The notes under the pieces: model-generated
Database searches by the model: none
What the model saw: the letters and a program-made list of their open reading frames with translations, nothing else
What the model was told of the DNA's origin: nothing
NCBI GenBank assembly: GCA_049512315.1
Contig: JBEKXF010000009.1
Coordinates: forward strand, 1-64,000
Length of the DNA: 64,000 bases
Source of the DNA: Candidatus Aminicenantales bacterium
Lineage (GTDB): Bacteria > Acidobacteriota > Aminicenantia > Aminicenantales > Saccharicenantaceae
Direction: 5' to 3'
Position numbers and translations under genes: made by a program
In this document: positions 31,168 to 32,244 of the stretch, piece by piece
How the letters are laid out: every line of letters starts with the position of its first letter
Position numbering within the stretch: the first letter of the stretch is position 1

Positions 31168-32244
31168 CTACTTCAGGATGTCGCGGACGGAGCCCTTCCG
31201 CCGCGTCACTCCCATTTCGTCCAGGAGCTCGAGAAGGGGGATCGCATACTTCCGACTGAGCCCCGTCAGGGCCTTGAACTCGGCCACCGTCAATTCCCTA
31301 TTCCCGGAGGCGCGGATCTTCTTCACGATCTCGTCGAGCCAGCGGGAATGGAGGATGAACCCGTCGCGGCCCTTGACAATGGTCTTCCTCTCCATGAGCA
31401 CCGAGAGGAGCGCTTGGAGCTTTCCCGGGGTCAGCCGGAAATGTCTCCTGATCTCGTCGAGCGATACCTGCCCGAATTCCCCCTTGAGAAACATGTTTTC
31501 CATCTCGCCCAGGATTTTTTCGTCCGCGGGAGACAAGGGGGGGCGGAAATCGACGAGTCCGGCGAGGCCGTCGTCCAGCCTGACTTTCCCGTCCTTCACC
31601 AGCGACCGGACCGCCAGGTGCAAGATGTTCGGGGCGACCTCGAACCTTTTTTCGAGGCTCTCGAAGGGCGCGCCGCGATGGCCGGGGTGTTTCTTTTGGT
31701 ACTGGGCGAGGTAGGCGGCGATCCTCCGGCGGAGAAAATCCAGGCTGTCCTGGAGGACCAGGACGAGGGGCGAAAAGGAGAGGATGCGGGCCAGCCCCTC
31801 TTCCTCGATCCCGCGGGCCAGGGCTTCGACGCGGGCCCGGTCGAGCCGCGAAAAGCCCACGACGTCTTCTTCCCGGAGGCCGCGGATGCCCTTGGTCTCG
31901 GCCAGCATGAGGAGCATCTCCCGTTCGCCGAGGGACAGGCGCTCCAGGATATCTTTCTTCCGGGCCGGCTTGACCTCACCGGGGTCGGGCGGCGAAGGGT
32001 CGAGGACGACCCCGCGCCCGAGCGGACGGCCGTCCTCGGAACGGACCTCGAAGGCGTCCATCCACCTGCCCTCCAGGCAACGCTCAGGAGTGACGAGGGC
32101 CCAGGCCGTATTCTTTTTCTTGATCTTATAGACAACAAAGACGGCGGGAACGGCATGGCCCTGAAAGACGACGGACGCCCGTCCGGTCGGACTGAGGTCC
32201 CCGGCCGGAAAGTCGAGGGCAGCGTCAAAGGAGATCGTTTTCAT
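31168..32244 (-). CDS. stand-alone SelB C-terminal (winged-helix, SECIS-binding-type) protein lacking the GTPase domain
   Basis: Ends in [32 protein letters not shown] (SelB last winged helix); degenerate domain III (DAFEVRS...GRGVVLDP); no P-loop. Confidence 0.8.
   Translation of the reverse strand: [358 protein letters not shown]

What the first reader, a model, noticed from the sequence alone, without database searches (positions are those of the whole stretch)
31168..32244. GTPase-less SelB 'SECIS-reader' module translationally coupled to RNase R
Seen in the sequence: a 358-aa ORF whose C-terminus ([37 protein letters not shown]), HP..RG motif and degenerate domain III match the back half of bacterial SelB. 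It has no P-loop and no domain II. Its ATG overlaps the rnr stop (ATGA), and rnr has a complete S1 domain, so no frameshifted G-domain lies upstream. Established knowledge: in bacteria the winged-helix domain IV binds the SECIS hairpin as part of one SelB polypeptide, whereas eukaryotes split SECIS binding (SBP2) from the elongation factor. Inference: this is either half of a split SelB (a bacterial SBP2-like trans factor) or a repurposed hairpin-RNA-binding adaptor working with RNase R.
Basis: partly seen in the sequence, partly recalled or inferred. Interest (0 to 1): 0.78.

Follow-up and report, generated by a model that had tools for sequence, protein, structure and literature searches.

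The report
Stand-alone GTPase-less SelB RNA-binding paralogue
This gene encodes only the back half of the selenocysteine elongation factor SelB (one beta-barrel plus four RNA-hairpin-binding winged helices); it is kept across a whole bacterial class whether or not selenocysteine is used, so it is a re-used RNA-binding protein and not half of a split SelB.

Summary
A 358-aa ORF on the minus strand (31168..32244) matches SelB-wing_3 and SelB-wing_2. It has no G domain or domain II, and its ATG overlaps the rnr stop (ATGA).

The split-SelB reading is refuted. The same genome carries an intact selA-selD-selB operon with a full-length SelB, plus tRNA-Sec. The short gene was found in 41 of 41 related genomes, while SelB was found in only 21 of 41.

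The protein is colinear with SelB domain 3 plus WHD1-4. The model has pLDDT 88, and its best fold matches are 4ZU9, 1LVA and 1WSU. Every WHD4 residue that is near-universal in the sampled SelBs is retained. A family-specific motif sits on the WHD1 wing.

The short forms make one clan (SH-aLRT 100), apart from all sampled SelBs. dN/dS is 0.25-0.36.

The RNase R link is real but not obligate. rnr lies directly upstream in 37 of 38 loci, with a 4-nt overlap in 25 of 38. However, pgi sits between the two genes in other orders, and one genome keeps the gene without any RNB protein.

Best reading: a selenocysteine-independent RNA-hairpin binder of unknown target, possibly working with RNase R or the ribosome. 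No paper on it was found.

The parts
31168..32244 (-). CDS of the GTPase-less SelB paralogue (358 aa plus stop)
   Evidence: ORF list. Pfam SelB-wing_3 and SelB-wing_2. Intact orthologues in 41 of 41 related genomes.
31999..32244 (-). N-terminal beta-barrel, residues 1-82, homologous to SelB domain 3
   Evidence: AF2 model strands E6-82. Foldseek matches to EF-Tu/SelB barrels over about 90 columns. The profile is colinear with SelB from about residue 266. PF25461 scores 27.4 bits in orthologue L063. It is the least conserved part (dN/dS 0.34-0.64) and is missing in four short orthologues of 257-312 aa.
31753..31968 (-). Winged helix 1, residues 93-164, carrying the family-specific motif E147, I154, F157, P159, L160 (EEEG..[8 protein letters not shown])
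   Evidence: Model. These columns are >=92% conserved in 48 short forms and <=29% in 51 SelBs.
31555..31752 (-). Winged helix 2, residues 165-230 (includes the KKHPGHRG motif)
   Evidence: Pfam SelB-wing_2 at residues 177-226. Model. Profile match to 1LVA.
31348..31530 (-). Winged helix 3, residues 239-299
   Evidence: Model. WH3-4 superpose on the 1WSU SelB-SECIS complex chains with TMt 0.83-0.87 and rmsd 1.9-2.3 A.
31171..31347 (-). Winged helix 4, residues 300-358, the SECIS-hairpin-binding module of SelB. It keeps K324, R331, K332, P336, L338, E339, D342, T347, R349, G351 and R354.
   Evidence: Pfam SelB-wing_3 at 62.7 bits. 11 columns are >=80% identical in both short forms and SelBs, against 0-2 in each other domain. 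It has the lowest dN/dS in 3 of 4 genome pairs, range 0.13-0.31.
32241..32244 (-). ATGA start/stop overlap with rnr
   Evidence: Sequence. A start codon overlapping the rnr stop by 4 nt is available in 25 of 38 related loci.
32250..32259 (-). Purine-rich Shine-Dalgarno-like run GGAAGAAAGG inside the rnr 3' end
   Evidence: Sequence. GGAGG/GGAAG-like runs at the same place in the alignment of 20 junctions.
32241..34343 (-). rnr, RNase R (700 aa), directly upstream in the same operon
   Evidence: TIGR02063 at 629.7 bits, above the cut-off of 597.85. RNB at 379 bits.
34344..36539 (-). Upstream operon genes: a 210-aa protein of no family (34344..34976), coaX (34993..35781) and birA (35778..36539)
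   Evidence: Pfam. Same gene order in the related loci.

Best explanation
The gene encodes a free-standing paralogue of bacterial SelB. It has lost the GTPase domain and domain 2. It keeps the domain-3 beta-barrel and the four winged-helix domains.

Shown:
- It is an old, vertically kept gene of one class of Acidobacteriota. Source names call this group Aminicenantes/Aminicenantales.
- It forms one clan apart from all SelBs sampled.
- It is under purifying selection.
- It is present whether or not the genome has SelB.
- It is co-transcribed with RNase R, and in most genomes of this order it is set up for translational coupling to it.

Inferred:
- WHD4 retains every residue that is near-universal in genuine SelBs, and WHD3-4 are predicted to superpose on the SelB-SECIS complex. 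The protein therefore most likely still grips the apical part of an RNA hairpin in the way SelB grips SECIS.
- The ligand has nothing to do with selenocysteine. The very high conservation of WHD4 suggests a conserved cellular RNA.
- The family-specific conserved patch on the WHD1 wing is a candidate new partner surface.
- The most likely cellular role is in RNA turnover or ribosome-linked RNA surveillance alongside RNase R. It might mark or hold structured RNA ends, or dock at the 30S mRNA entrance where SelB's C-terminal half sits. RNase R is not an obligate partner.
For: Identity and architecture:
- Pfam and NCBIfam matches.
- AF2 model with pLDDT 88.2: a barrel at 1-82 plus 4 winged helices.
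- Foldseek top hits are SelB 4ZU9 (E 7.9e-17), 1LVA and 5LZB. 1WSU matches with TMt 0.83-0.87 and rmsd 1.9-2.3 A.
- The family profile matches 1LVA at E 3.4e-35 over positions 110-357.

Not a split SelB:
- The genome has its own full SelB, selA, selD and tRNA-Sec.
- The short gene is in 41 of 41 genomes against SelB in 21 of 41. Among high-quality genomes the figures are 32 of 32 against 19 of 32.

A functional gene:
- Intact frames in all 41 genomes.
- 23 invariant columns in 41 sequences.
- dN/dS is 0.25-0.36, compared with rnr 0.17-0.19, coaX 0.11-0.17 and the 210-aa neighbour 0.24-0.31.

RNA-binding module retained:
- 11 WHD4 columns are shared at >=80% with 51 SelBs, including R331, K332, E339, D342, T347 and R349, each 98-100% conserved in the SelBs.
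- WHD3-4 bind SECIS in SelB (PMC4605307, sections 10 and 14 read).

One family:
- 40 short forms form a clan with SH-aLRT 100. The class's own SelBs form a separate clade with support 99.

Link to rnr:
- rnr is directly upstream in 37 of 38 loci, with a 4-nt overlap in 25 of 38.
- rnr is still in the same co-directional cluster in three other families of the class.
- In family f12 the short gene was found in 0 of 7 genomes and an RNB protein in 1 of 7.
Against: - There is no direct evidence of RNA binding, and no target RNA was found. The rnr/selBC junction has no conserved structure (0 pairs). Rfam finds only a tRNA in the window.
- Winged helices also bind DNA or proteins.
- The rnr link is not universal. 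A pgi gene lies between rnr and this gene in families f10, f11 and f13. G029 (92% complete) keeps an intact 361-aa copy directly after the 210-aa gene, with no RNB-domain match anywhere in its assembly.
- The operon also holds unrelated housekeeping genes (birA, coaX), so linkage may be mere synteny.
- The co-absence in f12 is one lineage and therefore at most one event.
- The barrel is poorly conserved and is dispensable in some lineages.
- Selection is weaker than on rnr or coaX.
- The SelB set used for the residue comparison and the tree was picked as the best matches to the family profile, so it is a biased sample.
Confidence: 0.6

Rival explanations
1. Dedicated RNase R adaptor. The protein binds RNase R stoichiometrically (hence the translational coupling) and delivers or withholds hairpin-containing substrates.
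For: - rnr is directly upstream in 37 of 38 loci.
- A 4-nt start/stop overlap is available in 25 of 38 loci, plus a 1-nt overlap in one.
- rnr is in the same cluster class-wide.
- Family f12 has the gene in 0 of 7 genomes and RNB in 1 of 7.
- The family-specific conserved WHD1 wing could be a protein interface.
Against: - G029 keeps the gene intact with no RNB protein found.
- pgi separates the two genes in three families, where this gene's start abuts or overlaps pgi instead.
- 9 of 38 loci have gaps of 4-155 nt.
Confidence: 0.25
2. Ribosome-docking factor. Like SelB's C-terminal half, it sits at the 30S mRNA entrance (h16/uS4). There it reads or holds mRNA hairpins, for example to pause translation or to flag stalled messages, independently of RNase R.
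For: - SelB's C-terminal domain contacts h16 of 16S rRNA and protein S4 (passage read in preprint 10.1101/2025.02.04.636165).
- WHD4 is more conserved here than in SelBs (mean top-residue frequency 0.75 against 0.53). This would fit an invariant ligand such as rRNA.
- The gene persists without rnr in G029.
Against: Nothing tested here bears directly on ribosome binding. The residues of SelB that touch h16/S4 were not available to me, so their conservation is untested.
Confidence: 0.15
3. Winged-helix DNA-binding regulator of the operon or of other genes.
For: Weak sub-threshold Pfam matches to DNA-binding wHTH families (MarR, HTH_24, Rpc34) in an orthologue. Structural matches to TFIIIC and Rpc34-type tandem winged helices at E 1.6e-6 to 8.2e-4.
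Against: The best-conserved residues are exactly those shared with SelB WHD4, which binds RNA. SelB chains far outrank the DNA-binding proteins in the sequence and fold searches.
Confidence: 0.08
4. Half of a split SelB, or an SBP2-like trans-acting SECIS binder serving selenocysteine insertion.
For: It retains the SECIS-binding module. In Sec-using members it could in principle also touch SECIS hairpins.
Against: - A full-length SelB with its own four wings is in the same genome.
- No orphan SelB G-half was found. The two best other TIGR00475 matches are EF-Tu, and the five weaker ones lie in 645-708-codon frames that I did not identify.
- 20 of 41 genomes have this gene and no SelB was found in them.
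- It is not a close relative of the co-resident SelB.
Confidence: 0.02
5. Decaying remnant of a truncated selB (pseudogene).
For: Exactly such a remnant exists elsewhere. A 376-aa SelB back half sits in one Thermodesulfatator-labelled MAG. The matches in 39 of its 40 sampled order relatives lie in frames of 638-684 codons.
Against: For this family: intact in 41 of 41 genomes across 19 genera, dN/dS 0.25-0.36, a conserved SD-like run and start overlap, and family-specific conserved residues.
Confidence: 0.02

Closest known systems
Bacterial selenocysteine elongation factor SelB (TIGR00475; structures 4ZU9, 5LZB, 1LVA, 2UWM, 1WSU)
   Same: Colinear with SelB domain 3 plus WHD1-4. Same predicted fold. 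All near-universal WHD4 residues are retained.
   Different: - No G domain and no domain 2.
- 35 bits against the 242-bit cut-off.
- Present where SelB was not found.
- Forms its own clan.
- Has its own conserved WHD1-wing motif and W302.
- Sits in an rnr operon rather than a sel operon.
Archaeal SelB-like proteins (aSelBL; PMC3037878, search listing and abstract seen only)
   Same: A SelB paralogue kept in organisms that do not use selenocysteine, so it has been re-used for something else.
   Different: aSelBL keeps the EF-Tu-like GTPase body. This bacterial family keeps only the opposite, RNA-binding half.
Eukaryotic SBP2 (recalled, not from any call)
   Same: A stand-alone protein that could read an RNA hairpin apart from the elongation factor.
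   Different: SBP2 has an unrelated fold (L7Ae type) and serves Sec insertion. This family is independent of the Sec trait.
SmpB/tmRNA with RNase R (the rnr-smpB neighbourhood of many bacteria; recalled, not from any call)
   Same: A small RNA-binding protein encoded next to rnr, suggesting recruitment of RNase R to particular RNAs.
   Different: No sequence or fold relation. No evidence here of tmRNA binding. The linkage is not obligate.

Membership tests
Bacterial SelB (TIGR00475) | EF-Tu-like GTP-binding domain (P-loop, GTP_EFTU) | tested here: not met
   No GTP_EFTU hit at E<=1. The protein starts at the domain-3 barrel. The frame is only 392 codons stop to stop.
Bacterial SelB (TIGR00475) | Domain 2 beta-barrel (GTP_EFTU_D2) that forms the Sec-binding pocket together with domain 1 | tested here: not met
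   No hit. The model has only one barrel.
Bacterial SelB (TIGR00475) | Domain 3 beta-barrel | tested here: met
   Barrel at residues 1-82. Colinear with SelB from about residue 266. PF25461 scores 27.4 bits (cut-off 27) in orthologue L063. It is weakly conserved.
Bacterial SelB (TIGR00475) | Four tandem winged-helix domains, the last two binding SECIS | tested here: met
   The fold and sequence are met. Actual RNA binding cannot be tested with these tools.
Bacterial SelB (TIGR00475) | Whole-protein score over NCBIfam's curated cut-off | tested here: not met
   35.3 bits against 242.25.
Bacterial SelB (TIGR00475) | Co-occurrence with the Sec trait (SelB itself used as the marker across relatives; selA, selD and tRNA-Sec checked in the own genome only) | tested here: not met
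   The short gene is in 41 of 41 genomes and SelB in 21 of 41. The own genome has all four Sec genes elsewhere.
Pfam SelB-wing_3 (PF09107) / SelB-wing_2 (PF09106) domain families | Score over the gathering threshold | tested here: met
   62.7 bits against 23.2, and 24.6 bits against 22.3.
Split or trans-acting SECIS-binding factor (SBP2-like role) | A partner elongation factor that lacks its own SECIS-binding domain, and dependence on the Sec trait | tested here: not met
   The genome's SelB has its own wings. No orphan SelB G-half was found: the two best other matches are EF-Tu, and the five weaker ones lie in 645-708-codon frames that I did not identify. The gene is present where no SelB was found.
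RNase R accessory protein | Physical binding to RNase R | not testable with these tools
   Only gene linkage is available, with one exception genome.

The most novel reading that the evidence does not exclude
The family is a trans-acting 'hairpin reader' that keeps SelB's two C-terminal contacts: the RNA hairpin, and the 30S mRNA entrance at h16/uS4. It uses them not for recoding but for RNA surveillance. It would recognise a structured element on ribosome-bound or free RNA and, through its new WHD1-wing surface, hand that RNA to RNase R. That would be a bacterial case where the RNA-recognition arm of a translation factor was split off and rewired to a decay enzyme.

A second, evolutionary strand: the short gene may be the relic of the class's ancestral, vertically inherited SelB, with the present sel operons re-acquired later. 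Two observations prompt this. The class's own SelBs score lower against the family profile (65-98 bits) than foreign SelBs do (136-196 bits). They also form a separate clade.
Probability: 0.15. Interest if true: 0.8.

Novelty: new variant of a known kind. Interest (0 to 1): 0.55.

Why it matters
SelB's winged-helix arm is the textbook bacterial example of a protein domain that reads an mRNA hairpin to reprogram a codon. Here that arm has been kept for a very long time as a separate gene, including in bacteria with no SelB. The module therefore has a second, unknown job.

Finding its RNA ligand would reveal a new RNA-protein recognition pair in an uncultured, widespread sediment and groundwater lineage. 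It might also show how RNase R, or the ribosome, is directed to structured RNAs.

On the practical side, JGI annotation calls these genes 'selenocysteine-specific elongation factor'. That would make selenocysteine users out of genomes in which no SelB was found.

Tried and rejected
- Complex prediction of RNase R (700 aa, alignment A2) with WHD1-4 (residues 93-358 of A1): score 0.00, no verdict. Not used as evidence either way.
- Expression: no RNA holder was listed for window:31000-32700.
- Autoregulatory hairpin at the rnr/selBC junction: RNAalifold on 20 junctions gave 0 pairs.
- Rfam on the whole window: only a tRNA at 24364-24435.
- ARAGORN on the sel locus L061 found no tRNA. tRNA-Sec was then found elsewhere with Rfam RF01852.
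- Fold of the 470-aa variant of family f10 from a 2-row alignment: pLDDT 52.9, and residues 1-145 were under 50. Its N-terminal extension therefore stays uninterpreted. BLASTP aligns it to a SelB only from residue 176 onward.
- Residue-level SECIS contacts of SelB: I found only domain-level statements in open papers. One search failed on a too-short search term and was re-sent. I therefore used conservation shared with 51 SelBs instead.
- Short SelB-like proteins outside the class:
  - P0186, P0194, P0219 and P0239 sit on 1.2-3.5 kb contigs and are probably fragments.
  - L071 and L072 are SelBs broken by a frame change or a contig end.
  - The P0213 cluster is a lone truncated SelB in one MAG.
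  - The ESM Atlas lists further 300-424-aa clusters with SelB wings in other phyla. These are leads only and may be fragments.
- Literature: no paper was found on a GTPase-less SelB paralogue. Searches were 'SelB C-terminal domain-containing protein' (0 papers); SelB/winged helix/paralog/RNase R; Aminicenantes+SelB (1 unrelated paper); SelB-like/SelB homolog/SelB paralog/truncated SelB/SelB C-terminal domain. Subscription journals are not covered.
- Earlier-findings look-ups by place and by sequence returned nothing.
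Full report
OBSERVATION

The ORF exists as described, but on the minus strand: 31168..32244, 358 aa. Its ATG overlaps the stop of the upstream gene as ATGA at 32241-32244. A purine-rich run GGAAGAAAGG lies 5 nt upstream, at 32250-32259.

Pfam gives SelB-wing_3 at 62.7 bits (residues 314-354) and SelB-wing_2 at 24.6 bits (residues 177-226). 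There is no GTP_EFTU or D2 match. NCBIfam selB scores 35.3 bits against a cut-off of 242, and only its last 100 positions are matched.

The upstream gene is a complete RNase R, with TIGR02063 at 629.7 bits over positions 3-704 of 711. The stop-to-stop frame of the short gene is 392 codons, so no G domain hides upstream.

NOT A SPLIT SelB

The window's genome (77 contigs, 96.6% complete) carries a complete Sec apparatus elsewhere:
- A full-length SelB on contig C1, 3824-5716: 337.8 bits, model positions 1-579, with GTP_EFTU, Beta-barrel_SelB and both wing domains.
- selD at C1:5892-6815 and selA at C1:7103-8470 next to it.
- A tRNA-Sec on C17 at 74 bits.

The two best remaining SelB-like N-terminal matches are EF-Tu genes.

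Across 41 genomes of the same order (19 genera, G000 included), the short gene was found in 41 of 41, and in 32 of 32 high-quality genomes. SelB over its cut-off was found in 21 of 41, and in 19 of 32 high-quality genomes. So 20 genomes, 13 of them high-quality, keep the short gene with no SelB found.

WHAT THE PROTEIN IS

An alignment of 41 family members (A1) gave an AlphaFold2 model with pLDDT 88.2 and pTM 0.66. It shows a beta-barrel at residues 1-82 followed by four winged helices at about 93-164, 165-230, 239-299 and 300-356.

Foldseek ranks SelB structures first: 4ZU9 at E 7.9e-17, then 1LVA and 5LZB. WHD3-4 superpose on the four chains of the SelB-SECIS complex 1WSU with TMt 0.83-0.87 and rmsd 1.9-2.3 A. 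The barrel matches EF-Tu/SelB barrels over about 90 columns.

The family profile hits Moorella SelB 1LVA at E 3.4e-35 over positions 110-357. It aligns colinearly with full-length SelBs from about residue 266-290 to their ends. One orthologue reaches Pfam Beta-barrel_SelB at 27.4 bits, cut-off 27.

In Aquifex SelB, D3 is residues 266-342 and WHD1-4 are 362-582. In the authors' model, D3 touches the T and extra arms of tRNA-Sec, and WHD3-4 bind SECIS (PMC4605307, sections 10 and 14 read). The protein is thus SelB minus D1 and D2.

WHICH PARTS ARE UNDER CONSTRAINT

I compared 48 short forms with 51 full-length SelBs.
- WHD4 has 11 columns with the same residue at >=80% in both groups: K324, R331, K332, P336, L338, E339, D342, T347, R349, G351 and R354. 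Each other domain has 0-2 such columns.
- WHD4 is more conserved in the short family than in SelBs (mean top-residue frequency 0.75 against 0.53).
- Residues conserved only in the short family cluster on the WHD1 wing (E147, I154, F157, P159, L160, the 'RILSFSPL' stretch), plus G295 and W302.
- The barrel is the least conserved part (0.39). It is absent from four orthologues of 257-312 aa.

dN/dS by Nei-Gojobori on four pairs of close genomes is 0.25-0.36 overall, 0.13-0.31 for WHD4 and 0.34-0.64 for the barrel. In the same genomes, rnr gives 0.17-0.19, coaX 0.11-0.17 and the 210-aa neighbour 0.24-0.31.

Caveat: the SelBs used for comparison were chosen as the best matches to the family profile.

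DISTRIBUTION AND ORIGIN

A word-index search found 655 proteins. All of the best 120 listed are 297-362 aa (118 of them 356-362 aa). NCBI names them 'SelB C-terminal domain-containing protein', from Aminicenantes/Acidobacteriota MAGs. JGI names them 'selenocysteine-specific elongation factor'.

In the exhaustive representative library the family forms a block of about 50 representatives. Those at >=230 bits are mostly 254-371 aa. Below that block come fragments and full-length SelBs at <=171 bits.

A scan of 251 genomes of the phylum found matches at E<=1e-20 in 170. This tally includes three genomes flagged as unpublished (G192, G089, G064), which contribute only to these counts.
- Short-frame forms occur only in the window's class: 15 of 22 sampled class genomes, in families f1, f5, f6, f10, f11, f13 and f14.
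- Family f12 has 0 of 7.
- Elsewhere in the phylum the matches lie in 620-1300-codon frames, that is, in SelB. A few short frames occur; of these I inspected two (L071, L072), and both are broken or cut SelBs.

A quick maximum-likelihood tree was built with LG+G4, SH-aLRT support only, midpoint drawing and 92 rows. Ten near-identical short forms were dropped beforehand. It puts all 40 class short forms in one clan (support 100), opposite 52 rows that hold every SelB. The class's own eight SelBs form a separate clade with support 99. Those SelBs score only 65-98 bits against the family HMM, whereas SelBs of other lineages score 136-196 bits.

The short gene is therefore not a recent copy of the resident SelB. 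Whether it is a relic of an older SelB is open, because the tree is unrooted and the sampling biased.

A CONTRASTING CASE

A 376-aa SelB back half exists in one MAG labelled Thermodesulfatator sp. (L075). It lies after purM-glyQ-glyS, and that genome has no SelB over the cut-off. In the tree it nests among SelBs. The matches in 39 of its 40 sampled order relatives lie in frames of 638-684 codons, at 33-53% identity. The class-wide family here is not.

GENE CONTEXT

I examined 38 loci from 38 relatives of the order.
- The order birA-coaX-210aa-rnr-short gene is conserved, with rnr directly upstream in 37 of 38.
- The exception is G029. There the short gene follows the 210-aa gene after about 100 nt, on an uninterrupted contig.
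- A start codon overlapping the rnr stop by 4 nt is available in 25 of 38 loci, and by 1 nt in one. In 9 loci there is a gap of 4-155 nt. Three loci could not be scored: one has no rnr, one has no start in frame, and one has a frameshifted rnr.
- SD-like GGAGG/GGAAG runs are conserved at the junction, but there is no conserved RNA structure.

In three other families of the class (f13, f11, f10) the cluster reads rnr-pgi-short gene. All three genes are co-directional and abutting or overlapping.

G029 (92% complete) has no RNase R or RNB match at all. In family f12, where the short gene was not found, an RNB protein was found in 1 of 7 genomes. The link to rnr is therefore old and tight in this order, but neither exclusive nor obligate. 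The operon also holds unrelated housekeeping genes.

MECHANISM

Shown: a conserved, selected, Sec-independent protein with the SelB D3+WHD1-4 architecture, co-transcribed with rnr.

Inferred:
- It binds the apical part of an RNA hairpin through WHD4, as SelB does with SECIS. In E. coli, SelB recognises a 17-nt minihelix with bulged U17 and loop G23/U24 (passage read in PMC8659212).
- The near-invariance of WHD4 points to a conserved cellular RNA rather than many diverse mRNA hairpins.
- The WHD1-wing patch may be a new partner surface.
- SelB's C-terminal domain also contacts h16 and S4 at the 30S mRNA entrance (passage read in preprint 10.1101/2025.02.04.636165), so a ribosome-docked role is possible.

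My odds are about 0.65 that it is an RNA binder, and about 0.3 that it works functionally with RNase R. The submitted confidence for the combined statement is 0.6.

COMPARISON AND NOVELTY

The protein fails membership of SelB proper: it has no G domain, no D2, a sub-threshold score, and is not tied to the Sec trait. It is a member of the two SelB-wing Pfam domain families.

The nearest conceptual parallel is the archaeal SelB-like family, which keeps the GTPase half in Sec-less archaea (PMC3037878, listing and abstract only). This family keeps the other half.

No paper describing it was found. Databases carry only generic or wrong names.

Two earlier follow-ups of this scan, on other genomes, reached the same reading. 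They are not independent evidence, but I re-derived each point here.

VERDICT

The finding is real and correctly observed. The split-SelB idea is refuted, and the RNase R adaptor idea is possible but not obligate. I class it as a new variant of a known kind, of moderate interest.

Noticed in passing
window 29092..31161 (+): A 689-aa protein with a K/E-rich tail and no Pfam or NCBIfam family. It is convergent with the short gene, with only 6 nt between the stops. The convergent neighbourhood is conserved in most loci of the order and in family f13.
   Followed up: partly
window 34344..34976 (-): A 210-aa protein of no family, with only a sub-threshold VMAP-C match at 18.2 bits. It lies directly upstream of rnr and is conserved in position across the order. 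dN/dS is 0.24-0.31.
   Followed up: partly
L050 (G003:C9), about 3280-3380: rnr is read in three frames within about 100 nt (tblastn pieces in frames 3, 1, 2), while the short gene downstream is intact. G003 is a 62%-complete assembly, so this could be a real break or an assembly error.
   Followed up: no
L067 4002..5414 (-) and P0188: Family f10 carries a 470-aa version with a conserved N-terminal extension (49% identity between two members). Only from residue 176 does it align to SelB. The fold of residues 1-145 could not be predicted.
   Followed up: partly
L075 7001..8131 (+), G285: A lone truncated SelB back half (376 aa) after purM-glyQ-glyS, in a MAG where no SelB over the cut-off was found. 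An RNase II-like RNB gene lies about 3.8 kb downstream at 11964..13973. The matches in 39 of its 40 sampled order relatives lie in frames of 638-684 codons.
   Followed up: yes
G000:C13:25615-26610: A second RNB-domain gene (250.5 bits, 502-codon frame) in the window's genome, besides rnr.
   Followed up: no
G000:C1:3824-8470 and relatives: The class's own SelBs score lower against the short-family profile (65-98 bits) than SelBs of other lineages (136-196 bits). SelB is also patchy in the order, at 21 of 41 genomes. This hints that the sel genes were gained or lost repeatedly.
   Followed up: partly
window 24364..24435 (-): A tRNA gene. It is the only Rfam match in the window at gathering threshold.
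   Followed up: no
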